Shown here: positions 5,450 to 62,429 of the stretch, piece by piece
Position numbering within the stretch: the stretch's first letter is position 1
How the letters are laid out: each line of letters starts with the position of its first letter
Assembly: GCA_951406725.2 (NCBI GenBank)
Contig: OX597816.1
Coordinates: 171,802,001-171,866,000, forward strand
Direction: 5' to 3'
Source: Octopus vulgaris
Taxonomy: Eukaryota
Length of the DNA stretch: 64,000 bases
Translations under genes and position numbers: made by a program
The notes under the pieces: model-generated
Database searches by the model: none
Seen by the model: only the letters and a program-made list of their open reading frames with translations
What the model was told of the DNA's origin: nothing

Positions 5450-5509
<60 letters not shown>

Positions 5510-5516
5510 ATATATA

Positions 5517-5614
<98 letters not shown>
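5450..5614. repeat. (TCTA)n/(TA)n microsatellite
   Basis: Read directly from the sequence. Confidence 0.95.
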
Positions 5615-5615
<1 letters not shown>

Positions 5616-5839
5616 TTTATTTAAAGCAGCAAAAATTCAACAAAATCTGTTACTCTGAGTTTCTCGTTGCCGTTCATCAGACAGTTTCTAACAAAAACTG
5701 TCTGATGAACGGCAACGAGAAACTCAGAGTAACAGATTTTGTTGAATTTTTTGCTGCTTTAAATAAAGCATATTACTCTACCACTGGTACTTGAGTACTC
5801 TTTTTTTCCACCTTGTTTCACATTTATGTGTTTACTCCA

Positions 5840-5840
<1 letters not shown>
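5615..5840 (+). mobile_element. Fold-back element A: ~73-bp inverted arms, 7-nt loop, ~70-bp one-sided tail, within (TA)n
   Basis: 5615-5687 is the reverse complement of 5695-5768 (one indel). (TA)n lies on both sides. Each arm carries an HHR. Confidence 0.85.
5698..5735 (+). ncRNA. Minimal type-I hammerhead ribozyme motif (mirror copy on - strand at ~5647-5684)
   Basis: ctgt CTGATGA a-cg-GCAA-cg-a GAAA ctcagag TA acag: stem I ctgt/acag, GNRA-capped stem II, near-palindromic stem III, GUA site. Confidence 0.7.
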
Positions 5841-5923
<83 letters not shown>

Positions 5924-6489
5924 CGGATCATTAGTAATATATTTAAAAGATAAGGTGTTTCTCTGTATGTCCTGTTAAGCATGTCCAGTGATACACATTA
6001 ACCTGTTATAGCAGTTTCCAGACCGGTGTACATATTTATGCGCATCCGCGAAAACAAAAATGATCGTCGACGCTATTTGAAATTTTTACTTCGCGGTTCA
6101 GTCTTACGCTATTCGTGCAATTTGATTTTCGTTTGTGATATAACACATCTAAATATATTTATTACTTAGCATGTGCTAAAACTCCTCTAAACTTTTTTAT
6201 TTGTGGTTTTAAAATACGGACTGAATCTACCATTCGTTTCTCTTTATAATTTCCAACTAATTTTTTTAAATATTTCAAAATCAAAATCGCATAAATATGT
6301 GTGCCAAAAACAGTAGTTAAAAGTTACGGAAACAAGATTTTTGGGAGATCTCTTATTATGACAGACGCTGTAATTGTTTTTGCTTCAGCACACGATCTCA
6401 GATCAAGTCACTTGCTATGCAAGTACATCTCCGTAATTTAATTTTCATTTATGCCAGAATTTTCGTTGCTCCACCGGTATCACAGACGA

Positions 6490-7609
6490 ACTTTATTCAG
6501 GACAGACACCAGCTGACAGACCAGATTTAACTGACAGAGTATTTAATATGAAGCTTAGGGATCTCTTACATGATATTTTGGAGAAGAATGTTTTGGGAGC
6601 GGTTTCAGGGTACACGTGGACTATAGAGTTCCAAAAGCGTGGACTACCCCATTCTCATATGCTGTTCATATTTTTAAAAAATCCAGGACATTATGATAAA
6701 TTTATTTATGCAGAACTTTCAAATCCACAAACACAACAAATTCTGTTTCAACATGTCACCAAAAGCATGCTACATGGTCCATGTGGAAGGGATAAACCCA
6801 ATGCAATATGTATGGTTGATGGGAAATGTAAAAACATTTCCCTAGAGACTTTCAGGAAATATATTATACAGTTATAATGGCCGTCCACTTTACCGACGTC
6901 GAAATAATGGTTTTACATTTACAAAGTTTAATGTTGAATTAGATAGTCGTTCAGTAGTACCATGTTCCCCCTTCTTTTTAGTCAAATACGGAGGTCATTG
7001 TAATGTATATCTGTAAAATTAGTTAACGATATTAGCAAATACATTCATAAAGGTCATGATCGGGTGACAGTCAATATTAGGGGACAAACCAATGCAGAAC
7101 AAACACACAAATATGAAATTGAAAAATATATTAATGGCCGCGATGTGTCCTGATCAGAGGCAGTCTGGAGGATTTTAGGGTCCAAATTACACGGTCCATA
7201 TCCTGCAGTCCAACAGCTTACAGTTCATTTATCCCAACATCAATACATTTACTTTAATGACGATTATAATATTGAACGTGTTATCCACACACATGATAGG
7301 TCCACTCTCACTGAAAAGGATGTGAGTTGACCGGGAATCGCCATCTGACTCATTTGCATGTACATTACACTACACTGATTTCCTTGAACTTTACACATGG
7401 AATAATAGTGAGAAAATGTGGCATCTCAGAAAAAATGATACACAATAGGCGCAGGAGTGGCTGTGTGGTAAGTAGCTTCCTAACCAACCACATGGTTCGG
7501 GGTTCAGTCCCACTGCGTGGCATCTTGGGCAAGTGTCTTCTGCTATAGCCCCGAGTCGACCAATGCCTTGTGAGTGGATTTGGTAGACGGAAACTGAAAG
7601 AAGCCTGTC

Positions 7610-8114: not shown

Positions 8115-8537
8115 ATAAATTATTAGAGAGTTATCCACTATGTGGATAACTCTAGTGCTAAAAATAGCTCCGAAGCAACCACAGAAGAACAGTTTCCAAC
8201 TAGAATCAACATACATTTGACGGAGGGAAAGTGAAATACAACGAATAAAATAGATTGACTCTATACAATTGTTTCATTACTAATGTAATATGTAGTTTTA
8301 CTTACACTCACATCTATAAATCTTCGGTCAAATGTATGTTGATTCTAGTTGGAAACTGTTCTTCTGTGGTTGCTTCGGAGCTATTTTTAGCACTAGAGTT
8401 ATCCACATAGTGGATAACTCTCTAATAATTTATGTATAAATTTGTATTTTCTCCGTAGTTTTTTGTGCTAAGCCACTTGGTGTTAAATTAATGGTATTAT
8501 TAAATTAATATCGATTTTTCACCCTCATTTATAATTT

Positions 8538-8538
<1 letters not shown>
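8115..8538 (+). mobile_element. Fold-back element B: ~107-bp inverted arms, ~105-bp spacer, ~100-bp tail, within (TA)n
   Basis: 8115-8221 is the reverse complement of 8327-8433. Each arm holds a nested palindrome agagttatccac-tat-gtggataactct. The spacer on the - strand has a degenerate HHR, CCGAAGA...GAAA caattg TA. Confidence 0.8.
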
Positions 8539-11521: not shown

Positions 11522-13015
<1,494 letters not shown>

Positions 13016-13480
13016 AACGACGTGACCAGCTGACTACAACCACCGATCACTAACAACAGCCAGCAAAACGTGCTCGTGTAAGGACAAATCTAGATGGTCA
13101 CACGGTAACCTCTGTATGAGTTGCACCCTCGTATATAACATACGGAGGCCCGTATGTGTACATAGGTGCCATGGCTGATTCATTCGAGAATCGATACCGC
13201 AACTACATCTCAAGCTTGAAAAAATAACTAACAGGCATACAACATGACTGGCGGATTTTCTCTGAAAACTAAAATCAGATAACATCAACTATGAACTGTC
13301 CTGGGTGTTTGTAAGACACGCACAACCATACAACATTCTTTCTAGATGTGGGTTGTGCTCGGAAGAATCTTTGTCCATTTTACTAAACAGAAAAAGAGTT
13401 ATTAACAGATTAACTGAACGAATTGCACGCTGCATACAGGCTAAGAAAGCCACTTTCCCTCACTATGGTTCATTACCCAC

Positions 13481-16660: not shown

Positions 16661-16722
16661 TGGTGTTAGGAGTAGCACATATATATATACGATCGGTGGT
16701 TGTAGTCAGCTGGTCACGTCAT

Positions 16723-16771
<49 letters not shown>

Positions 16772-16776
<5 letters not shown>

Positions 16777-16951
16777 TGTTGTATTTAGGAATGGTCGTTT
16801 TGCCAGTTTTGCCAATAAAAACACACGCACTATTATATGTGCGTGTGTTTTTATTGGCTAAACTGGCAAAATGACCATTCCTAAATACAACAATATCTGT
16901 TTCAACACACGATTTCACATAAAAAAATCTTGCACAACAAATATATAAGCG
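16772..16951 (+). mobile_element. Fold-back element D, second copy
   Basis: Reverse complement of 12788-12970. Confidence 0.75.
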
Positions 16952-17370
16952 TATATATATATATATATAAATAGCAGTCAAAGAGTTATAGCTATTCTTT
17001 CTACTTAGCATTTTCTATTTTTGACTTGTTTTTTCATATATATATATATACACATATATATATATATGTATGTATGTATGTATATATACACACACACATA
17101 CTTACATACATGCATACATACTTTAAAACAGCTAGCACTATGTCTATCTCTGTTTGTCCAGCTCTCTGACATGGACATCAAAAGCAGTTTGCTGCTACAG
17201 TATTGTCTTTGCTGATAGGACCGTTTTGTTAGCTGAGTATTGAGTAAAAAACGTATATCAACTGTTCACATATATAGGTTTGAAATGTGTGTGTGTGTTT
17301 ATGTATACATAGCTATTATACATAAATATTTATGCATATATACATACATAGTCACAGACACACATATGCA

Positions 17371-27720: not shown

Positions 27721-27939
27721 TACTCTTTACTCTTTTACTTGTTTCAGTCATTTGACTGCGGCCATGCTGGAGCACCGCCTTTAATCGAGCAACTCGACCC
27801 TCGCACTTATTCTTTGTAAGCCCAGTACTTATTCTATCGGTCTCTTTTGCCGAACCGCTAAGTGACGGGGACATAAACACACTAGCATCGGTTGTCAAGC
27901 AATGCTAGGGGGACAAAGACAGACACACAAACACACACA

Positions 27940-28002
<63 letters not shown>

Positions 28003-28176
28003 ACATATATACGACGGGCTTCTTTCAGTTTCCGTCTACCAAATCCACTCACAAGGCTTTGGTCGGCCCGAGGCTATAGTAGAAGACACTTGCCCAAGGT
28101 GCCACGCAGTGGGACTGAACCCGGAACCATGTGGTTGGTAAACAAGCTACTTACCACACAGCCACTCCTGCGCCTA
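27721..28176 (-). mobile_element. SINE family 1, full length
   Basis: Reverse complement of family 1. It splits the duplication copy. Confidence 0.93.
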
Positions 28177-28519
28177 TGTCATCAAAGTAATAACAAATTC
28201 CCATCTCGAAATATATTTGGAGGGACAACAATGATTTTCACACAATGCCTGTATACTTACTAATATAGGTTGGAAGGTTTTGAAATAAATCCTTGTACAT
28301 TGATTTTTAACTTTTGTTTTCACATTTGGTTCCTGTTGTCGTCATTCACACCATAGTTTTCACATAGGAATTCAAAAACTTACTTTACGGTATAGTGTTT
28401 GGAATCGGGTGTATCTATTCCTGTAACAGAGATTGTTGAAGTTTTCCTCTGCAGAAATAATCCAGTCATATGTTCCTTATTTACAACCATTTATAGTGTT
28501 CCTACACACATACATTCCT

Positions 28520-28526
28520 CCCTCCC

Positions 28527-28573
<47 letters not shown>

Positions 28574-28652
28574 TCTTTCTCTCTTAGTATCTCTCTCTCT
28601 TTTTCTCCCTATATATATATATATATATATATACATACATATGTGTGTGTGC

Positions 28653-28683
<31 letters not shown>

Positions 28684-28703
28684 CATACATATGTGTGTGT
28701 GTG

Positions 28704-28747
<44 letters not shown>

Positions 28748-28900
28748 CATACAAACATACATACATACATACAAACATACATACATACATGCATACATAC
28801 ATACAAAGATACATACATGCATACATGCATTCATACATGCATACATACATACATACATACATACATACATACATACATACATACATACATACATGTGTAT
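28520..28900. repeat. Compound (CT)n(TA)n(CATA)n microsatellite
   Basis: Read directly from the sequence. Confidence 0.95.
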
Positions 28901-29620
28901 ATGTTTGTGTGATATTTCCTCTTCAAAGACAAAATATCTTGTGATGTTTTGTAACTTTAATGCATTAAAAGACGTTAACCAATGTGCTAAGAAAGAGATA
29001 AGAATACAAGCTTACCAACTCATTATTTTTATTGTATTATTTACCTTAGAACCCATTAGGCGATGCATTTCCGTCTTTATTTAACGCAATTCATAGTTAA
29101 ATATTCATTTCAAAATAAGAGATGCTTGATTCTCTTGTAAATCTCTAATTTTTTCTTTTCAATCTGTAATTGTCATCTGCAAGAATTCACACTATATTAC
29201 GGAAAAGTTACTAGAAAGCATTGCAGGGCAATTGCCCGAAACGTCAAACCTCTTCTCTTCTTCACAACAAACTGATTCCAAAGGCGAATTCATGGAATGT
29301 ACCTACATTCAACTACCGTGAGGAGTGGAAAGTCTAAAGTTATGGGTCCTTACTTTTCTACAGAAAGTAGAGTATGATGAAGGTGCTGTGATACCGTGAA
29401 GCTTCTTTTTAATTAATTGTAAATTTAATTGTAAATTTAATTGTAAATTTAATTAATTGTAAATTTGAATTTATCATTCTCCAATACAGCGAGTTTAGAA
29501 AATCGTTGATGCGTCGGACAAAATGCTTGATGGTATTTCTTCCAGTTCTTTACCTTCTGGGCTCAAACTCCGCTAAAGGTCAGTTTTACCTTTCATTCTC
29601 TCAGAACCAATAGAATGCTA

Positions 29621-29699
29621 TTTTCTCAGACATTGTATATCTTGGATAGAGGTCCTTACCTTAAGGACCTCTGTCCAAGATATACAATGTCTGAGAAAA
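29621..29699. repeat. Near-perfect 79-bp palindrome (38-bp arms, 3-nt loop)
   Basis: ttttctcagacattgtatatcttggatagaggtcctta-cct-taaggacctctgtccaagatatacaatgtctgagaaaa, one mismatch. Confidence 0.9.
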
Positions 29700-29717
29700 A
29701 GATTAACAAAAAAATTT

Positions 29718-29881
29718 GGCAGTAGGAACGGCTGTGTGATAAGTAGCTTCCTTACGAACCACATGGTTTCGGGTTCAGTCCCACTGCGTGACACCTTGGG
29801 CAAGTGTCTTCTACTATAGCCTCGGGCCGACCAAAGCCTTGTGAGTGGATTTGGTAGACGGAAACTGAAAGAGGTCCGTCG

Positions 29882-29930
<49 letters not shown>

Positions 29931-29954
29931 GCGTGTGCGTGTGTGTGTGTGCGT

Positions 29955-29987
<33 letters not shown>

Positions 29988-30076
29988 CGTGTGTGTGTTT
30001 GTTTGTTTGTGTGTCTGTGTTCATTCCCCCAACATCGCTTGACAACCGATGCTGGTGTGTTTACATCCCCGTAACT
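29718..30076 (+). mobile_element. SINE family 1, 3'-truncated
   Basis: Head, core and internal (TG)n are present. Confidence 0.85.
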
Positions 30077-30672: not shown

Positions 30673-30826
30673 TAGGCGCAGGAGTGGCTGTGTAGCAAGT
30701 AACTTGCTTCCCAACCACATGGTTCTGGGTTCATTCCCACTTCGGAAAGTGTCTTCTACTATAGCCTCGGGCCGTCCAAAGCCTTGTGAATGGATTTGGT
30801 AGACGGAAACTGAAAGAATCCCGTCG

Positions 30827-30862
<36 letters not shown>

Positions 30863-30896
30863 TGTATGTATGTATGTATGTATGTATGTATGTATG

Positions 30897-30932
<36 letters not shown>

Positions 30933-30944
30933 TGTATGTATGTA

Positions 30945-30987
<43 letters not shown>

Positions 30988-31170
30988 TTGTGTGTCTGTG
31001 TTTGTCCCCGATGGTGGTGTGATTACGTCCCAGTAACTTAGCGGCTCAGCAAAAGAGACCGATAGAATAAGTACTAGGCTTCCAAAGAATAAGTCCTGGG
31101 GTCGATTTGCTCGACTAAAGGCGGTGCTCCAGCATGGCCGCAGTCAAATGACTGAAACAAGTAAAAGAGT
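30673..31170 (+). mobile_element. SINE family 1, full length
   Basis: Matches the family consensus. Confidence 0.9.
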
Positions 31171-31232
31171 CTAGACTCATTGGACCCAATTACCGACATG
31201 CATGTATGTATGTATGTATGTATGTATGTATG

Positions 31233-31263
<31 letters not shown>

Positions 31264-31288
31264 GTATGTATGTATGTATGTATGTATG

Positions 31289-31319
<31 letters not shown>

Positions 31320-32137
31320 TGTATGTATGTATGTATGTATGTATGTATGTATGTATGTATGTATGTATGTATGTATGTAGTGCTAGAAACTACACCTTAA
31401 ATTGCACCTTGAGCTAATAATCAAGATTCTTATCGAATCCTGACAGGAAGAGGCTTGGCAAAACTTTATCAGTCATACAATGAATATGGATTTAGGTGGG
31501 GACCCTGACTGGCGATTGACTTATTTTCTTCTTGACGATTCATTTAAAAATACCCGTTTAGTAAAAAAACAAATTGTGTTTATGTTCAGCTAACTGATTG
31601 TTATATTTTGTATTACACTAAAATGTGTTAAATGTTGCGTGAAAATCTCTTGATGTTTCTTCTTATTCTTTTTTATGATGTTTTAAGGGTTTGGGCAAAA
31701 GGAAAGGCGTTGTGGCCATGACCTTTTCAAATACTTTGAGAAATAAGATAGTGATGCTGTTGATGGATGATTTTAACTTCTGTGAGGTGAAGGCTGAATG
31801 AGGGTAGGGATTTCCAGGGAGATGGTACTGGAGAAGGAAGATTGGGTACGGTCCTTATAAAGGAGAACATCACATTGCTTATCTAGGGATTTCGTCGTCA
31901 AAGTTCAAATCAAGATTCCAGTCCTTTTTGAAATTTGGCAACGAAGGATCGGGCGACTTTCAGGAAGCGAGCTATCTCTGTGTCACTATGTAGCGTGCCT
32001 TTTCATTGCTGATGCCTAATATTGTTTATTTGAAAAGTAAGATAAAAAAAACAGTTAGAAGAAAGAGCTACCCTCAAAAAACTGTAACTCCCTCCCTCTC
32101 TCTTTCTCTCCCTCTCTTTCGCTCTCCCTCTCTTTCA

Positions 32138-32170
<33 letters not shown>

Positions 32171-32224
32171 GCTGTATATGTATATATATATATATATATG
32201 TATGTATATATATATATATATATA

Positions 32225-32443
32225 TACTCTTTACTCTTTTACACTTTTACTTGTTTCAGGCATTTGATGGTGGCCATGCTGGAGCACTGGCTTTTAGGCG
32301 AGCAAATCGACCCCAGAACTTATTCTTTGTAAGCCCAGTACTTATTCTATCGGTCTCTTTTGCCGAACCGCTAGGTGACGGAGACGTAAACACACCAGCA
32401 GCAGTTGTCAAGCAATGCTAGGGGGACAAACACAGACACACAA

Positions 32444-32476
<33 letters not shown>

Positions 32477-32625
32477 CATATATACGACAGGCTTCTTTCA
32501 GTTTCCGTCTACCAAATCCACTCACAAGGCTTTGGTCGGCCCGAGGCTATAGTAGAAGACACTTGCCCAAGATGCCACGCAGTGGGACTGAACCCGGAAC
32601 CATGTGGTTCGTTAGCAAACTACCA
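32225..32625 (-). mobile_element. SINE family 1
   Basis: Reverse-complement match with the 5' tip missing. Confidence 0.9.
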
Positions 32626-33485: not shown

Positions 33486-33614
33486 GACCACTCCATCGCC
33501 AAATGGTTTGGCTAAATCCAGGCGGTCAGTTTTATATTGCCTATAGCTGCTTTCAATATTTTGTAATTTTCACGTAAGCATTTCGCTAAATCAGCCATAA
33601 ATTTATATGATAAA

Positions 33615-34009
33615 CAAGCAGTATCGCCCGGCGTTGCTCGGGTTTGTAAGGGAAATAACTATATAAGCATTTTTAGAGAGTTATAGCCAATAAATAGCAA
33701 AAAAAGCATTAAAATGGAAAAAAAATGATGGTAAATTTTTTTTAAATCGTTGACTCATCGTAGACATTATAAGAGAGTAACTTCCCTTATATAATAGCGA
33801 AAAAATGCATTAAAATGGAAAAAAATTATGGTAATTTTTTTTTTAAATCGTAGACTCATCGTAGACGCGCGCTAATAACCAGAAGGGCTCGATATGAATC
33901 ACGACTATAAGATACCCGGTTTTGGTTAAACTGCACCGCAAAATGTGGGAGTAGTTAGGAATCTAAATCGTAGGAGACAGACACACAACCTCTCTTTTAT
34001 ATATAAAGA
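33615..34009 (-). mobile_element. Non-autonomous Helitron
   Basis: Reverse complement of 26216-26613, with the terminal CTAG mutated. Confidence 0.9.
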
Positions 34010-34337
34010 TATATATATACTAACAGTCTGGATTTAGCCTGTCAGTAAATGAAAATGTGCTCCCTCGCAGCTGTAAGGGTTTTAACTGTTATTTCTAGCA
34101 ATATAAGAGCTACCCGGCACCCTCAGTCGCAATTAGCGACAATTGAATTTTTTACTTTTTGGAGGCACCTCGTTAGGTCGGAAAAATATACACACACAAT
34201 AATATTGAGTAAATATCAAACTTGGTACATAAGTAGCGGACGAATAATATTCTTGCAGTGTATGTAAACAAATTAGACCTAGCTGGGTGAAGAAATCAGC
34301 TCTTGAGCTCTTCAGACATGTATTGTTACTCATTTAT

Positions 34338-34339
<2 letters not shown>

Positions 34340-34371
<32 letters not shown>

Positions 34372-34567
34372 GGCGGGCGTGTGTGTGTGTGTGTGTATGT
34401 ATGTGTGTGCGCGACCAGATTTCACCGAGTTTCCGTGTCTGCCAAATTCACTCAGAATACGTTGTTCGGCCCGGGCTATTATAGAAGACATTTGCCGTGC
34501 AATAGGACTGAACCCGAAAATACCTGGTTGCAAAGTTGACCATCTTAACCACATAGCCATTCCTGCG
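34340..34567 (-). mobile_element. SINE family 1, old diverged head
   Basis: ggactgaacccgaa, tagaagacatttgcc and accacatagccattcctgcg. Confidence 0.65.
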
Positions 34568-34642
34568 GTCTACATCTATGAAAGAAGACAGCATGGGAAT
34601 GAGAACCAAGTTTAAACACGTTTTCCATTTTCTATTCCCTAA

Positions 34643-35124
34643 TCTTTATATGTAAAAGTAAGGTTGTGTGTCTGTCTCCTACGATTTAGATTCCTAACTA
34701 CTCCCACATTTTGCGGTGCGGGTATCTTATAGTCGTGATTCATATCGAGCCCTTCTGGGTATTAGCGCGCGTCTACGATGAGTCTACGATTTAAAAAAAA
34801 ATTTACCATCATTTATTTCCATTTTAATGCATTTTTTCGCTATTATATAAGGGAAGTAACTCTCTAAAAATGTCTACGATGAGTCAACGATTTAAAAAAA
34901 AATTACCATCATTTTTTTCCATATTAATGCATTTTTTTCGCTATTATATAAGGGAAGTAACTCTCTAAAAATGTCTACGATGAGTCAATGATTTAAAAAA
35001 AAATTTACCATAATTTTTTTCCCATTTTTAATGCATTTTTTTGCTTTTTTGGCTATAACTCTCTAAAAATGCTTATATAGTTATTTCCCTTACAAATCCG
35101 AGCAACGCCGGGCGATATTGCTAG
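34643..35124 (+). mobile_element. Non-autonomous Helitron with three internal tandem units
   Basis: a|TC...hairpin...CTAG|t. Confidence 0.92.
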
Positions 35125-35225
35125 TAAAGCATATAAATAAACTGTGAAAGTATTTTTATATAGATATGCGCGTGCATTTTCACACACGTAGCGGTTTCAT
35201 TTTCAGAATGCTTCGCTATTCATTA

Positions 35226-46158: not shown

Positions 46159-46163
<5 letters not shown>

Positions 46164-46962
46164 CCAAGAAAAAAGCAACAAGAATGGATCAATTGATTAG
46201 TACAATTGTTTCATACTAAAAACATTTAATTTCAAGCTGCAAATATTACAGCAAATAAATGTCAAGTATTCATCAGCTAAATCACATATAGGTTTTCCAT
46301 ATATTCTTAGAGAGTGTAAATATCCTTATGAAGTTATAGGAGTGAGTCCCATGAGTCTGAAGTAAGATTCCAAGCAGACTATATATGTTTTCCAACAATA
46401 CAAAGTTTTTAAAATGATTATTAACATCCCAGAGAAGATAAATCTACTCATAAAAATGTGGGTATAAGTTCCAAGAGGCATGAGGAAAGATGCTGGTCAT
46501 ACCACGGTTAAGTTCGCATCTAACTGTTGCAGACAAACTGTTGCAGACAGATAGAATTTTGTCTTCTCTGGGATGTTAATAATCATTTTAAAAACTTTGT
46601 ATTGTTGGAAAATATATATAGCCTGCTTGGAATCTTACTTCAGATTCATGGAACTCACTCCTATAACTTCATAAGGATATTTACACTCTCTAAGAATATA
46701 TGGAAAACCTATATGTGATTTAGCTGATGAATACTTGACATTATATTTGCTGTAATATTTGCAACTTGAAAAAAAATGTTTATAGTATGAAACGATTGTA
46801 CTAATCTACCGATCCATTCTTGTTGCTTTTTTCTTGGTTATAATCACCCCACATAATTTTATGGTTAATACCATAAAGAATCCTGGTGCATCTAAGTTAA
46901 GTACCATATTCATTTGAATTCATTTGAATTCATTTGAATCTTAATTGTTTTTGCTGAAATTA
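46159..46962 (+). mobile_element. Fold-back element C: ~285-bp inverted arms, ~115-bp spacer, ~120-bp tail, within (TA)n
   Basis: 46159-46443 is the reverse complement of ~46557-46842 with few differences. Both arms carry an HHR. Confidence 0.88.
46717..46806 (+). ncRNA. Type-I hammerhead ribozyme with extended stem II (mirror copy at 46195-46283 on -)
   Basis: gatttag CTGATGA atact...(~48 nt)...agtat GAAA c(g/a)attg TA ctaatc. The mirror copy has the perfect palindromic stem III caattg. Confidence 0.78.
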
Positions 46963-48953: not shown

Positions 48954-49840
48954 AAACTTGATGGCTTATGGCCTCTCTAGCGAGCGGCTTCTCAAGAAAT
49001 GAAAGGAGGAAAGGACCTCGCTACATAATGTTTCGCTTTAGCTATCGATCGTAAGTGACCCTGTTATTTTGGGGGTTTCAAGAGACCAGCAGGAATTTCC
49101 TGAAATGCAAGCACGGTCGAAAGACCTCCGTTCTGGAGTTAGGGATGTTCTTCAGGTCGAGGAAGTCCTTTAGTATCCTCACCCGTTCCGCTATGCACAG
49201 TTTACAACGCTTGGTCCCGTTTGTGGAGGGGCCTGGATTTTCTAAGATTCTCTATGATATTGTGTGTGGAATCTCGTCGTCCTTCAGCTGCCATACATCG
49301 TCGGCTAATGACATAACGTATTTCCTTACCGGTTGGTATCCTGAAGGAGTATTTATGGTTGGAGAGGCGATGCTTGAAAGTGTTACCGGAGCAACCGATG
49401 TATCTTCGTGCCAGGGTATTGGCAGTGCTGTATCTGTTGGTGTTGGCGTTGCTGCTACCGTTGTTAATGGTACTAGAGCTGTTGGTGTTGGTGTCATTGG
49501 AAGTGGCGATGGTGTTGGTGCCGTTTCTACTGGTATTGATAATGGTGTTGTTGTTGTTGTTGTTGTTATGGTCCTCGTCGTTGATGGAGGTGCTGTCACA
49601 GCTGTTATAGATATCATTTCTGATGGCTCTGTTGCTATTTCCGTTAGGGATACTGCTATTGTTGTCGTTGATGATGTTATTGTTATTATCATTGACGATG
49701 GTGCTCCTGCTGGTTCTGTTCGTGTCTCTGCTGCATCAACAATTGGTACTGTCGACCCTGCTACTGTAGTATATGTTGGGGAAGTGGTGGATGTTGCTGC
49801 TGCCGTTAGGAATATTGCTTTGCTGTCGTTGATGTTGTTA

Positions 49841-50078
49841 GGCGTGTGGCTTAGTGGTTAGGGTGTTGAACTCATGATCGTAAGGCTGTGGTTTCGATTC
49901 CTGGACCGAGCAATGCGTTGTGTTCTTGAGCAAAACACTTCATTTCGCGTTGCTCCAGTCCCCTCAGCTGGCAAAAATGAGTAACGCTGCGACGGACCGG
50001 CGTCCCGTCCAAGTGGGGAATTTCTATGCCAATGAAACCGGGAAACCGGACCTTATGAGTCTGGCATGGCTCGAGAAG
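49841..50078 (+). mobile_element. SINE family 4 (tRNA head plus CORE/V-like box) inserted in the PLE
   Basis: tggcttagtggtta and ggtttcgattcct boxes, gtgttcttgagcaaaacactt core, and a 10-bp TSD gatgttgtta. Confidence 0.88.
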
Positions 50079-50819
50079 GATGTTGTTATCGCTAGCGATG
50101 ATACCGCCGCTGGTTCTGTTCGTGTCTCTGCTGCTGCTACTATTCGTACTGTCGATCCTGCTACTGTAGAATATGTTGGGGAAGATGCTGATGTTGATGC
50201 TGCTGTTAGGGTCGGCCAGTACCGCAGCTTCGTGGACGACGCCCTTCGTTTTGCAGTGGCCTCTCACTGGGCATCTGTTGTGTTCCCTTCATGAGCATGC
50301 TGCCCCCGCTTGTGGTCCAGGGGTGCTTCCTAGAATGCTCTTAATATTGGGGGCACAGCTAAAAGACACCTTAAGTTTGTGCCTGCTGAAAATGCGTCCG
50401 TATCTAGGTAGACGCGTGAAATGTTTATCTATTAACTTAAGGAATATCCTACCTACAGACGTTATAATATTAAGAGAGAAAATTAATAGCGTACAGTGTT
50501 TTCTGGCAGAGCTTATTACTCTAACATAAATAAATGGGATTTACTCTGCTGAGCTTAGCATAAGTGTGATTTTAAAATAAGCATATAAATTTTCAAGTAT
50601 TTCTATTCATAGAACTCCAACCTGAATCAGTCTTTGTGAGAAGGCATATGTGTATTATTAAATTTAAATACAAATTACGACCAGATTATATTATGAGATT
50701 GCAAGAGTGGAATTATTATAATAAGATAATCTACAGTCTTTGGTGGGCGTGCAGCGCTCATCTAACTCAACCAGAATATACCGGACGAACTCAATACATA
50801 AGTCAGAGTGTATATATAT

Positions 50820-51063: not shown

Positions 51064-51150
51064 ATAGATTACCTCACTAAGCACCCCAATAATAAACTCC
51101 CCGTTCTTGATACTGAACTTTGGTTAGAGACTGTGAACAACAGAGTCAGT
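51064..51150 (+). pseudogene. Tiny PLE-type RT fragment
   Basis: IDYLTKHPNNKLPVLDTELWLE resembles the PLE RT late-palm motif D.P.....KLPVLD..(L/V)W. Confidence 0.45.
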
Positions 51151-51228
51151 TCCTCCACTCCTATTATATATATGTATATATATATATATATATATTCACA
51201 CACACACACACACACACACATACACACA

Positions 51229-51299
<71 letters not shown>

Positions 51300-51752
51300 G
51301 CACACATACACGCGTGCGCACAGAATGTTGCATTTCAGGTCACCGTGTGTCAGAATTCGAGCATTTTACTTACTTTTTGAAACTGTGTTATCTTCAATTT
51401 GTACTTTGCAATTCAATTTAACTTCTTAACAGATTAAAAAATTAAAGTATCGAACGATTTAGTAGTTTTTAAAAAAATTTCGGGACAGATGAAAGGTTAG
51501 CAATTGAAAAGGTATTTCGTTTATCATCTTATCTTGTGTATCGCATGATTACAATCTGATAAACTTAGCAACAGTTACGTATCTGAATTTAGTTCCTTTT
51601 GTGGTAATCAAGCAATTTAAGTATGCTGTCAACAAATAACAAACGTAAAGTCATTGTAGTCGATCAATCTGCTAGAAATAGTCGCTAAATTATCCTAAAA
51701 TCGTATTATCTACAGCCTTTTATAAGAATATGCCACATTAGATATAATGTTC

Positions 51753-54730: not shown

Positions 54731-54899
54731 AACTTTCTTAAGAAGAACTTAAATAAATGTATATACATATTAATATATGTGTGTATCTATGTAATATGTA
54801 TGTATATAACAAATATATACACACAAGACATTAGATAAGATAAATAGGAAGGGGCTTGAAATAGTTAAGAAATTAAGTATACAAGATATCACTAGACCT

Positions 54900-56975
54900 T
54901 ACACATCTATGAGACCAAGAAGAAGCCTAAAAGACCATAAGGAAAACTTCCAAGACAACCCATCGGTAAAACTTATATGCGTATCTAAATCGAATATAGG
55001 TATGATTAGAAGGCTATACTAGATAGGATAATACTTAAATTAAAAATGTGAAACCAAACTCAAATTGTGGTCTGAAACCAATGAAATTATCGCATGATTT
55101 AAAATCCTAGGGAAGAAAAACAAGACCAATATTGTGCAGTTAAAAATGTTGAACTACTACCAGTTCATAAACCCTGTTCTACTAAACAAAGCATTATCAT
55201 TTGCTAAAACCAACTCCGACCTCACTGGGGAAGATATAGTTTTGGCGGCTAGGAGCACTATAATAGAATATGGAGGTAAACTCTGTACTCGATCAGACAG
55301 CGTTGATGCATTCGATATAAGAATGGCGTCTACCGATTCCGCGCAAGTGACGGATACAGAAGGCATATACCTATTATCGAAAATAGAATCTTGGCTCCAG
55401 AATATAGGGTGGAGGATTATATAGAGACAAGGCTTTATTCACTATACAAAAAAGTAGCAACGTAGAAATAGAAAGATGCGAGAAAAACTTTTTTTAATTC
55501 TTTTGAAAGTTGAGTTTGGAAAAAAATCACCGAGTGGTAAATTTCGTAGGCGTAAAGCTTAGCCTCGTCGATAGGTCAGGAATTCTTTGCAGCATTAGAT
55601 AGGCACTTCCTAAGATCTTCCAAATATAACAAAATCATCAACAGACGTAATGTTAAATTAGCACTCGCGACCTCTCACAATCTAGAATACCACACACACA
55701 AACTAAACAATACAAAACTAAATACAATAAAACTGGAGGGGTACACGAAGCAGTCGCGACTAATAACAATGTATACGACGATAAAATGGTTGCAAATAGG
55801 GGTAATAAAAGTTCATCAGTAGCAAAAATGGATCCAAACAACACCACACAATCGACAGTCCAGCCCATACATAAGGGAACTGAGCACACGATTACAAGAG
55901 AAAGAATAAAGAGGACCACTAGTAGTAACTCCGCTGGGAGAACTGAAAAAAATAATATTTTATGTAACTACAGACGTAAAGACGAATACAGATTAAATAA
56001 CAACTGCATAGTAAAGAATATAGTTTACAAATGTGAAGTGAAGGCAAGTACACAGAAATACGTGTACATTGGTGGCACCGGAGACACCATGAAAAATCGT
56101 CTGCGTAACTATCTTACATCATTTTCCAATATACATAAAAGACACTCCACATCACTATCAAACATCGTCTGGAAGCTCAAAGAGAATGGAGTGGAGCATA
56201 CGATCCACTGGACCATTATAGAAAAAATGCTGCATCATACAACAGAACATCACGTGCATGTAACTTATGCCTAGAAAATCTCTAGAAATCATCATATCCA
56301 GTTGAAACGTTATAAGACACTCAGATTTGATTATTTCATGTAAACATAAAAGCAAAACATCCTTTGCGAAATTTTAAAAAATATTTTGAAACAGAATAAC
56401 ATCAAATGGAATTAGCATATTATAGAACAATGAAAGCACACAAACAAACAGACCAACAAATATTTAAGATGCTATACACTATATCAACAGAAACAATTAA
56501 ACGGTAACCCAACAAAAGTATCATTTATCAGTTCAGATAATAAACCCCAACAGCTGATGACTGTAGTGGCTGTACCAAGCTGTTTAATTCAGAATTTATT
56601 GAAGTTGTCATGCCTTAAATGAGAAAGAACAAAGGAATACTTGACATCAGTAGACTGAATAGTAAAATAAGTCCAACATCACCACACATACCTCCATCTC
56701 CATATAATTACCATTCATTCCTCTCTTTCCCACCAAAATGCACGCAGAGATTCATAATTCAATCAACTAGTCAAAAGGGATAAGTATCTCTCTGTTAAAT
56801 ATCCACTAATGTTATATCGCCTGAAGAAATGAACCCATGAAGATATAAACCCGATGCCCACAGATATTCTACGGACTGTAATCATCATAGAAAAACAGAC
56901 TGTGGTCTTAAAAGACATGCGATTCGTGAAAACGCGCGTAGCGATGCATTGAAGGACTATAAATTCCAGTCAAGG
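54900..56975 (+). mobile_element. PLE (Naiad/Chlamys-like) remnant with RT, GIY-YIG and 3' pLTR HHR
   Basis: LKDHKENF..SKSNIG, LLNKALSFAK, FDIRMASTDSAQVTD..GIYLL, GLYRD., CN.RRK..LNNNC..NIVYKC..YVYIGGT..TSLSNIVWKLK..IHWTII and CNLCLE. Multiple frameshifts. Confidence 0.9.
56816..56945 (+). ncRNA. Type-I hammerhead ribozyme with ~90-nt stem II insertion
   Basis: atcgc CTGAAGA a atgaa...ttcgt GAAA a cgcgcg TA gcgat: perfect 5-bp stem I, palindromic stem III, GUA site. Confidence 0.72.
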
Positions 56976-59575: not shown

Positions 59576-60890
59576 ATTATATAACAAAACAGGAAGCCGG
59601 AAAATTTTTTTGGTATTATTCACCATTACACATGTTTCATTTGTTAATAGGAATCACAGAATTGTACATGTAAGAAATGCCCTATTAGAAGTTCTTCAAA
59701 GAGAGAATCAAGTAATATTATTTGATTCTCTGTCTGAAGAATTTCTAATAGGAATTTTCTTACATGTGTAACGACGGGATTTACTGTGAAGATGCATCGG
59801 AGAAATGAACGAAGAACAATATTTGCTCTATTATTAACTAGCAGTATCGCCCGGCGTTGCTCGGGTTTGTAAGGGAAATAACTATATAAGCACTTTTAGA
59901 GATGTAAAGTATAATAGCCATCTCAATATGGCTAACCACAAAGGTGGGGGGTTACTGTAGCTTTTTACGTTCTGAGATTTAATAATAAATTTTTAGAGAG
60001 TTACTTCCCTTATATATGCCAAAAATGCATTAAAAATGGGAAAAATTGATGATAAATTTTTTTTTTAATCGTAGGCTCATCGTAGACGCGTGCTAATACC
60101 CAGAAGGGCTCGATATGAATCATGACTATAAGATACCCGGTTTTGGTTAAACTGCACCGCAAAATGTGGGAGTAGTTAGGAATCTAAATCGTAGGAGACA
60201 GACAGCACACAACCTCACTTTTATATATAAAGATTAATATAGCCATATGATATTAGTCGTTAGAATAAATGTATATCGTCGAGTTGTTTGTAGATTTCCA
60301 GTCCATTTTGCCTGATAGTTGTTTCATCTCTGGGGCAGCTAACGTGACAGACAGGGTAAGAGGAACGTCTGCAATTAGATAGAGTAACAGCTGTAGTTTC
60401 GTGCTCACGACAGAACATACCTGAGGTGATGAAGACAGCCATGCTTATTGGTAGGCGCCGAATCACCAAAAGAGAATGAGAGCACTTTGGCTTGTGTATT
60501 TATATTTTTGCTAATTTATTTAGGTCAACCGAGAACGAATACTACTGCTATATCAGATTCTACTTCTGTATCAGATTTGACACGTGAATGTCCCGTAAAA
60601 GGTCTGAGAGGTCGGATCATTCTCTTTGAAAGGCTAAGACAATGGACCGAGGACTTGTTTGACAATGTGGGAAAATATAGATTCACTTTTGAATTCTTCG
60701 TCGCACATGTTTATCCAACATGTACGATTTTGTGGTTCCTATTAACAAATGAAACGTGTAATAGTGAATAAATAGTACCAAAAATATTTTCCACTTACCT
60801 GTTTTGTTGTATAATGACTCCGTAAACAATATTTCCAGAATTTTCAATTCCAATATCTTCCTCACATCAATACAACAATGACATCTGAAA
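59576..60890 (+). mobile_element. Fold-back element E: ~95-bp diverged inverted arms ~1.05 kb apart, with a nested Helitron
   Basis: 59576-59671 matches the reverse complement of 60718-60815. The arms carry GAAA c(a/g)tg..TA half-HHRs. An extra hairpin lies at 59666-59767. Confidence 0.65.
59838..60233 (-). mobile_element. Non-autonomous Helitron with a distinct ~95-bp internal segment
   Basis: Family termini TC...hairpin CTAG. Confidence 0.9.
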
Positions 60891-61410: not shown

Positions 61411-61930
61411 CTATATATATTTCTATCCAGAGGTATAAAGAACTCAATACACAAATGTAGAATAGGTTATGAATTTTATTCTAAGCTGGAGTTAAGTAGA
61501 TTGGGACTGTTAATTACACGTTTTGTCAGATTTGAGGCAATTAATTTAATAAATGATAGGACTTCATGTCTATAAACTCTATCTTGTAATTCATTGTCCG
61601 ACAACAAATAGTTTTGTTAACGGGTTTGTTTAACAGTTTTTGCAGCTTGTATAAGTAAAAAGTTGTCTCGTTTATATAAATGATTGCTTGAAAATCATTA
61701 AAATTTGATAGTCCTGATGTATGGAGTTTGTAAGCTTAAAACTGTATGTGCTTGTGTGCATGTGCGCGTGCTCGTGAGAGAGAGGGAGTGTGTGCGAGAG
61801 GAGAAAGAGAGAGACAGAGGGAAAGAAGAGAGAGACACAGCGTACAGGTTTCAAATTTGTTGTGAGGTATTCGACCTCACAACCTCACGATCGTAAGCTC
61901 GACGCTCTAACCACTGAGCCATGCGCCTTC

Positions 61931-62429
<499 letters not shown>

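What the first reader, a model, noticed from the sequence alone, without database searches (positions are those of the whole stretch)
5615..5840. Asymmetric fold-back architecture shared by unrelated elements: (TA)n-arm-spacer-arm'-tail-(TA)n
Seen: elements at 5615-5840, 8115-8538, 12788-12970/16772-16951 and 46159-46962 have unrelated sequences but the same layout. The inverted repeat starts flush with a (TA)n tract, and a 60-120-bp unique tail lies on one side only. 59576-60890 has the same arm and tail layout without clear (TA)n flanks. They are not TIR MITEs because the repeat is not terminal at both ends. In element A the whole body is essentially two opposed HHRs, so either strand yields a ribozyme and a 73-bp dsRNA hairpin. 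Inference: these are minimal products of PLE integration (inverted, truncated pLTR plus pLTR and tail), possibly propagating as non-autonomous units.
Basis: partly seen in the sequence, partly recalled or inferred. Interest (0 to 1): 0.85.

Follow-up and report, generated by a model that had tools for sequence, protein, structure and literature searches.

The report
Back-to-back Penelope retroelement end stubs
These DNA hairpins are the cut-down ends of Penelope-type jumping genes, pasted back to back into TA repeats; the layout is already known, but hundreds of copies here follow strict rules suggesting that each insertion is likely made by copying one RNA twice, once from each target strand.

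Summary
The layout is real. Element A (5615-5840) is the last ~155 bases of a young Hydra-clade Penelope-like element (PLE): 3,356-bp unit, 711-aa ORF, 95-96% identical end. At least 641 such short double-hammerhead fold-backs exist. C and D are ends of other PLEs, B is part of a 493-bp hammerhead tandem repeat, E is unresolved. Outer ends are fixed and the inner junction varies, so the palindrome is made per insertion and is not a replicating unit. All 108 two-armed insertions with intact ends carry exactly one tail (one 11-nt stub outside that set may be an exception); either arm can be longer; both arms share parent variants (952/964). This fits two cDNAs primed on opposite target strands at two internal start sites, as shown in vitro for another PLE. 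36 of 96 arms stop within 10 nt at the hammerhead's 5' edge, implying a short RNA template. The hairpin should sequester both ribozymes. The architecture, including opposed hammerheads in a Hydra element, is in print, and this scan noted it on other DNA of this genome; the strict rules and the 5' edge were not found in my searches.

The parts
5615..5687 (-). A, inverted arm: PLE end positions 81 back to 8, no tail; starts flush with (TA)n
5686..5768 (+). A, direct arm: PLE end positions -1 to 81 (pLTR end with hammerhead), 95-96% identical to the 3' end of the Hydra-clade partner
5688..5746 (+). Type I minimal hammerhead motif: core CTGATGA at 5702, 2-bp stem II, near-palindromic stem III, predicted cut after 5731; activity untested
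   Evidence: same helix I/stem III layout as Hydra-2_aMil
5637..5687 (-). Mirror hammerhead motif in the inverted arm (core at 5680, predicted cut after 5651), helix I shortened
5769..5840 (+). A, 72-nt tail = sequence between the two fixed ends; in tandem copies it lies just before the ORF
5450..5614 (.). Left (CTAT)n/(TA)n target tract
5841..5923 (.). Right (TA)n target tract
8118..8538 (.). B: inverted arm 8118-8328 (longer, no tail, partial hammerhead) + direct arm 8324-8430 + tail 8431-8538; piece of a 493-bp hammerhead tandem repeat (non-LTR retrozyme type)
12793..12971 (-). C copy 1: fold-back end of another GIY-YIG PLE; inverted duplicate of copy 2 with shared flank
16772..16951 (+). 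C copy 2: arms 16773-16832/16837-16896, tail 16897-16951
46163..46960 (.). D: fold-back end of a second Hydra-like PLE, two opposed hammerheads with long stem II (cores 46276 -, 46724 +), tail 46839-46960
59576..60890 (.). E: old degenerate fold-back (arms 59576-59671/60718-60815) split by other repeats; partner not established

Best explanation
Element A is two short, independently 5'-truncated copies of the 3' end of a young Hydra-clade Penelope-like retroelement joined head to head in a TA repeat, and it was likely made in one step by the element's protein priming reverse transcription on both nicked target strands at two different internal sites of one RNA. Shown: the coding partner; two fixed outer ends 71-72 nt apart (positions 81 and 152-153); one tail per insertion; variable inner junction; both arms from one parent. 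Inferred: GIY-YIG nicks (TA)n on both strands; a coupled (probably dimeric) complex starts one cDNA at each site, helped by TA-like bases right behind each site in the RNA (CATAT, TCTA); the two cDNAs are joined where they stop, often by microhomology. The ~230-bp size class likely arises when the template is a short RNA whose 5' end lies at about position -2 (a pLTR transcription start, or the protected 5' edge of the hammerhead stem), so both RTs run off at once. C and D are the same product of other PLE families; B is the same product made in trans on a 493-nt hammerhead repeat. The hairpin and the opposed ribozymes are by-products without a likely function.
For: Partner: many copies of a 727-codon open frame (711 aa from Met) whose 3' end matches A at 95-96%; best fold match telomerase RT; Hydra motifs. 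End rule: of 145 loci examined, 113 had two arms, 108 with both ends intact, all 108 one tail + one no-tail; 59 of 59 in the two sets not selected on their ends. B 12 of 12, C 16 of 18 two-armed (two atypical ends), D 5 of 5, never two tails (these sets were selected by similarity). No-tail arm longer in 27, tail arm longer in 17, equal in 15 of those 59, so snap-back of a tail-primed cDNA cannot be general. Same parent: 952 of 964 diagnostic sites agree versus 69% shuffled (max 79% in 1000); young long pairs differ 0.10% within versus 0.64% between insertions; alleles private to one insertion in the end unit are unmirrored 41 to 1, so arms are not being homogenised now. 5' edge: 36 of 96 arms end at -4..+5 versus 7 in the 50 nt upstream; in 50 listed short fold-backs no arm passes -4 and 45 have an arm at -4..+2 (hand count); short pairs with short (20), long with long (17), mixed 3. 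In vitro precedent: anole PLE nicks and extends both strands and starts at two sites bounding the tail (PMC11167929).
Against: No biochemistry or RNA ends for this element. One possible no-tail/no-tail case with an 11-nt stub (L252); 32 of 145 loci had no detectable second arm. 12 of 964 diagnostic sites disagree between arms (for example L249, L309), and 14 of 316 shared sites in the young set, so a few insertions may use two parents. Ten upstream pLTR copies of tandem or full-length insertions start at -10 to about -2830, none at -4..+2, which argues against a single full-length RNA starting at -2 and calls for a separate short template. Polishing of a long-read assembly could inflate arm identity in long perfect repeats (not testable here). 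In the anole PLE the start site is not homologous to the target, whereas here 1-5 TA-like bases follow each site. The sample for 5' ends needs an exact match at positions 5-38, so arms ending further in are seen only as partners.
Confidence: 0.78

Rival explanations
1. Self-priming (snap-back): one cDNA or an antisense RNA folds back and is copied into a hairpin, and the endonuclease resolves it asymmetrically to leave one tail (model of Arkhipova 2013 and the remark in Craig 2021).
For: Gives same-parent arms and one tail by construction; many junctions sit on short palindromes (CTAG, stem III, CACGTG); several long pairs stop within 10 nt of each other; PMC3846280 discussion, PMC8557442.
Against: The no-tail arm is longer in 27 of 59 insertions, often by over 1 kb and sometimes with a tandem copy, which a tail-primed cDNA cannot copy from itself; both ends are also used by single-arm insertions; in vitro the two ends are RT start sites. 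The antisense-RNA version is not excluded by arm lengths alone.
Confidence: 0.13
2. The short fold-backs are a non-autonomous family copied as whole palindromic units from a few masters.
For: About half of two-armed copies are of one size class; some junctions recur; several variants were seen only in short copies.
Against: Junctions vary widely and the longer arm switches sides; the same junction occurs with different subfamily variants; either arm of a short copy can carry the tail; the short-only variants come from sets chosen by similarity to an older copy, and related variants sit on long older PLE copies; in the position-ordered sample short and long copies are about equally diverged (0.49% and 0.35%).
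Confidence: 0.05
3. Palindromes are assembly or library fold-back artefacts, or arise after insertion by local inverted duplication.
For: No listed contig spans the whole palindrome; one local inverted duplication does exist in the window (the C pair).
Against: Left ends fall on one exact base in many loci of four families with TA on both sides; arms carry unmirrored mutations; arm-to-arm joints occur in contigs of other runs; inverted arms hold element sequence absent from the direct arm.
Confidence: 0.02

Closest known systems
Hydra-clade PLEs (Craig et al. 2021, PMC8557442): Hydra-2_aMil, Penelope-13_HM, Hydra-1_Obim
   Same: RWK, DKT, CxCX5C linker, no CCHH, CxxC and CxH around E and N, C-terminal GIY-YIG, hammerhead, (TA)n targets. 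Hydra-2_aMil has the same helix I and stem III layout; Penelope-13_HM is listed with a 5'-truncated inverted copy and hammerheads on both strands.
   Different: Unit is 3,356 bp (described ones mostly under 3 kb); a different family from Hydra-1_Obim (other hammerhead; two partner peptides not found in the supplement); very young and abundant; stem II reduced to 2 bp without the G10.1-C11.1 pair.
Inverted pLTR + tail insertions of EN+ PLEs (PMC3846280; PMC8557442 Fig. 2)
   Same: Inverted 5'-truncated copy next to a direct copy; tail on one end; AT-rich or microsatellite targets.
   Different: Tails here are 55-122 nt rather than 30-40; the tail is not optional but exactly one per two-armed insertion; printed explanations were self-priming or EN resolution.
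Poseidon_Ac in vitro TPRT (Frangieh et al. 2024, PMC11167929)
   Same: Two internal RT start sites bounding the tail; both strands nicked and extended; hammerhead next to the ORF start.
   Different: Other clade; no difference in start site between strands was seen there, and the text read does not link the two sites to inverted insertions; here each insertion uses each site once.
Metazoan non-LTR retrozymes (PMC7229834; 10.64898/2026.07.22.740005)
   Same: Family B: non-coding ~490-bp tandem repeat with a type I hammerhead, PLE-type ends.
   Different: A, C and D are ends of coding elements, not tandem monomers; inverted two-start insertions are not described in the parts read.
LINE-1 twin priming (recalled, no call)
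   Same: Second target strand primes a second cDNA on the same RNA, giving an inversion with a microhomology junction.
   Different: In L1 the second primer anneals at a variable upstream point and arms do not overlap; here both start sites are fixed and the arms overlap, giving a palindrome.

Membership tests
EN+ Penelope-like element (partner of A) | Single ORF with telomerase-like RT and GIY-YIG endonuclease | tested here: met
   711-aa ORF, YRDD, VVY..YTG; model pLDDT 93.7, top fold match TERT, E 8e-10; our Pfam copy gave no hit; homologues carry PF26215/PF28514 labels and one PF01541
EN+ Penelope-like element (partner of A) | pLTR in partial tandems, inverted 5'-truncated copy, tail on one end | tested here: met
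EN+ Penelope-like element (partner of A) | Target-site duplication | tested here: inconclusive
   insertions lie in (TA)n, where a duplication cannot be read
Hydra clade | RWK and DKT motifs | tested here: met
   RRLRWK, SDKTRN (definition)
Hydra clade | CxCX5C linker, no CCHH, CxxC and CxH around conserved E and N | tested here: met
   CNCKNESSC at 562; no Cys between VVY and YTG; CRLCLLEK and NQRSELMNLCRH
Hydra clade | Hammerhead in the end repeat and (TA)n insertion | tested here: met
Hydra clade | Length under about 3 kb | tested here: not met
   3,356-bp unit; the paper says 'generally', so not decisive
Hydra clade | Placement in the clade by RT phylogeny | not tested
   no tree with reference sequences; likeness to printed Hydra proteins seen by eye only
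Neptune/Nematis clade (my first guess) | CX2-5CxxC linker plus CCHH inside GIY-YIG | tested here: not met
   absent in A's partner; the partner of C has cysteines in both places, clade not resolved
Type I minimal hammerhead | Core CUGANGA/GAAA/NUH with helices I-III, palindromic helix III | tested here: met
   stem II only 2 bp
Type I minimal hammerhead | Self-cleavage | not testable with these tools
   such motifs cleave poorly as monomers (PMC4209133)
Non-LTR retrozyme (family B) | Non-coding tandem repeat with a type I hammerhead in each unit | tested here: met
   493-bp period arrays at 97-99%; motif CCGAAGA..GAAACAATTGTA
Non-LTR retrozyme (family B) | Circular monomer RNA | not testable with these tools
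   no raw RNA reads served
Non-LTR retrozyme (element A) | Tandem non-coding monomers | tested here: not met
   tandem copies of the A end always enclose the coding unit; one local duplicate of a stub (L101)
TIR MITE | Inverted repeats at both termini, fixed length | tested here: not met
   one-sided tail and variable junction

The most novel reading that the evidence does not exclude
Penelope-type insertion is intrinsically two-headed: one complex copies one RNA twice, each target strand primed at its own fixed site, and about half of the two-armed insertions of this family are 'double strong-stop' products of a short RNA that starts at the 5' edge of the hammerhead. If that RNA comes from an internal pLTR promoter, the ~155-nt ribozyme-plus-tail unit is a self-contained, re-mobilisable minimal retroelement and a direct route from PLE ends to retrozymes.
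Probability: 0.4. Interest if true: 0.7.

Novelty: new member of a known kind. Interest (0 to 1): 0.43.

Why it matters
How PLEs make their inverted, one-tailed insertions is stated as open in PMC8557442 and has been explained by self-priming (PMC3846280) or left aside after the in vitro work (PMC11167929). A very young family with intact ORFs and thousands of near-identical copies gives hard predictions: two start sites 71 nt apart, one per strand, one RNA, and a preferred stop at -2. It is a ready substrate for the first biochemistry of a Hydra-clade element. For annotation, such hairpins should be filed as PLE ends and not as MITEs, miRNAs or switches; they are also a likely source of long dsRNA in this genome (untested).

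Tried and rejected
Rfam scan: no hammerhead model among the 150 of 193 rows shown; miRNA hits are hairpin or microsatellite noise. Pfam and PDB sequence searches gave nothing for the partner and only a weak RVT_1 hit for C's partner. First reading as Neptune dropped after motif test. Arms ending at the hammerhead cut site: 6-7 ends at 41-44 in the tail-selected set, but all include the base before the cut and none of the partner arms in the position-ordered set ends there: not supported. Splice acceptor at CTAG as cause of the 5' edge: arms reach 2-4 bases beyond it and a common variant removes the AG: rejected. Cap-derived extra G at junctions: not seen in single-arm copies inspected by eye. 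Tail query of the young subfamily returned nothing (common words skipped). RNA: no RNA holder listed on record; only contigs were served, so starts, ends, strand, editing and small RNAs could not be read; no clear stop at -2. A look-up by sequence in earlier findings gave nothing. Partner for E and mobiliser for B not established. Literature searches for the one-tail rule, two-strand priming or a strong stop in PLEs returned only the papers cited; 'twin priming' and 'strong-stop' had 0 occurrences in the PLE papers listed. Subscription papers, Repbase/Dfam entries and bioRxiv supplements were not searchable.

Full report
Observation. Element A is as described: a 73-bp arm flush with a TA tract (5615-5687), a 7-nt loop, the second arm, a 72-nt tail (5769-5840) and another TA tract. 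B, C and D share the layout with unrelated sequence. A holds two opposed type I hammerhead cores; so does D; B holds a partial one. The genome is 2.8 Gb in 227 contigs; earlier notes of this scan call the animal an octopus, which I did not check.

Copy number and variability. A query with A gave 1,197 candidates (40 scored). An exact 34-nt hammerhead core occurs 3,031 times (control 0), and 641 short fold-backs carry both cores; both are lower bounds for one subfamily. A tail-only query showed fixed outer ends and a junction that differs from copy to copy.

The partner. A GIY-YIG remnant in the window (55999-56244) led through to an older coding copy ending in an A-like hammerhead, and from there to a very young family with many 727-codon open frames. 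Its 3' end matches A at 95-96% in 25 of the 30 loci returned. The unit is 3,356 bp; in tandem copies hammerhead and tail lie just before the ORF. The 711-aa protein folds confidently and is closest to telomerase RT. It has the motifs that define the Hydra clade (section 11 of PMC8557442, read in full; motifs). The supplement of that paper lists a coral Hydra hammerhead of the same layout, a Hydra element with an inverted copy and hammerheads on both strands, and a different octopus family (searches and part 2 of 59 seen). C lies downstream of another GIY-YIG ORF in 18 of 20 loci. D lies downstream of a Hydra-like endonuclease in 4 distinct loci among the 20 fetched. B is a piece of a 493-bp non-coding hammerhead tandem repeat. 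E resembles one other fold-back at 72-80% and stays unresolved.

Rules of the insertions. I examined 145 loci: 30, 28 (window copy and one duplicate dropped), 20 picked by eye as neighbouring copies, and 67 covering the first 100 exact-match hits on contig 1 (three further loci of that sample were looked at separately). 113 had two arms; 108 had both ends intact, and all 108 had one arm ending at position 81 and one at 152-153. The two sets not selected on ends give 59 of 59. One locus outside the 67 has an 11-nt stub that would make a no-tail/no-tail pair. Either arm can be the longer one (no-tail 27, tail 17, equal 15). The arms agree at 952 of 964 subfamily sites against 69% when shuffled; young long pairs differ by 0.10% within and 0.64% between insertions; alleles private to one insertion are unmirrored 41 to 1 in the end unit, while in the young long set 37 are mirrored and 21 are not. 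Arm lengths are coupled: 20 short-short, 17 long-long, 3 mixed. Behind each end the tandem unit continues with TA-like bases.

The 5' edge. Of 96 arms in the position-ordered sample (four internal tandem copies dropped, five values corrected by hand), 36 end at -4..+5 and 7 in the next 50 nt upstream. Among the 50 short fold-backs listed, no arm passes -4 and 45 have an arm at -4..+2 (hand count). Position -2 is the A of CCATTCT, an initiator-like sequence (consensus recalled), and also the 5' edge of the extended helix I. Drosophila Penelope has an internal promoter (PMC2377424, passages). Against a single full-length RNA starting there: ten upstream pLTR copies in tandem insertions start elsewhere. 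A separate short template is the simplest reading; promoter and protected edge cannot be told apart here.

Mechanism. Shown: partner, two ends, one tail, same parent, variable junction, 5' edge. From the literature: the anole PLE nicks and extends both strands and starts at two internal sites that bound the tail (PMC11167929, main text read). Inferred: one complex primes each strand of a nicked (TA)n target at a different site of one RNA and the two cDNAs are joined where they stop. Snap-back of a tail-primed cDNA fails where the no-tail arm is longer; self-priming on antisense RNA (PMC3846280, passages) remains possible.

Ribozymes and hairpin. In either direction the antisense arm is made first, and the hairpin is about 77 kcal/mol more stable than a hammerhead-compatible fold. 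Stem II is 2 bp and stem III is near-palindromic, the dimer type that cleaves poorly alone (PMC4209133, passages). The opposed ribozymes are most likely silent by-products.

Novelty. The layout is known (PMC8557442 passages; PMC3846280), retrozymes as PLE dependants are proposed (PMC7229834 passages; 10.64898/2026.07.22.740005, parts 1-3 of 5), and an octopus repeat annotation lists recently active PLEs without these features in the passages seen (PMC13282606). This scan noted similar stubs, and two-start insertions of a ~490-nt repeat, elsewhere in this genome. Not found in nine searches: the strict one-tail rule with same-parent arms, the coupling of arm lengths and the sharp 5' edge. Supplements other than that of PMC8557442 were not read and may bear on this. 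Verdict: a new, young member of a known kind, useful as a test bed; interest 0.43.

Noticed in passing
window 12771-13048 and 16691-16973: The two C copies form a 283-nt inverted duplication (95%) that includes about 45 nt of unique flank and the same junction: one insertion duplicated, not two.
   Followed up: yes
window 54837-56244, 49075-50480, 13044-13463, 51064-51429: Decayed PLE coding remnants (RT and GIY-YIG pieces) of several families; the endonuclease query had 13,729 candidates in the genome.
   Followed up: partly
window 4634 (+), 33481 (-), 14079 (+), 38905 (+), about 16550 (-): Further hammerhead-like motifs of other repeat families; 33481 has 8-bp helix I and 5-bp helix II.
   Followed up: no
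L329 and one search hit list: The coding partner of C is another young PLE with open frames up to 1,312 codons and many head-to-head pairs; its hammerhead core mostly reads CTGATGC instead of CTGATGA.
   Followed up: partly
B monomer (L047) and window 46724-46800: B and D share a hammerhead with long stem II and the same palindromic stem III (ACAATTGT), a lead that D's PLE or a relative mobilises B.
   Followed up: no
window 5786-5796, B tail, L159: A CCAC(T)TGG hairpin motif recurs in the tails of unrelated families (A, B and a B-like repeat); a candidate protein-binding element.
   Followed up: no
L219:5285-5353: In three runs guessed to be RNA the summed contig depth over the tail is far above that over hammerhead and ORF; contigs cannot rank parts, so only a lead.
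   Followed up: no
window 61866-62131, 33601-35138, 30704-32618, 27861-30076: Pairs of SINE-like repeats in inverted orientation, one separated only by a TA tract.
   Followed up: no
window 6437-6874: Helitron helicase-like N-terminal remnant (PF14214, E 9e-20).
   Followed up: no
   Followed up: no
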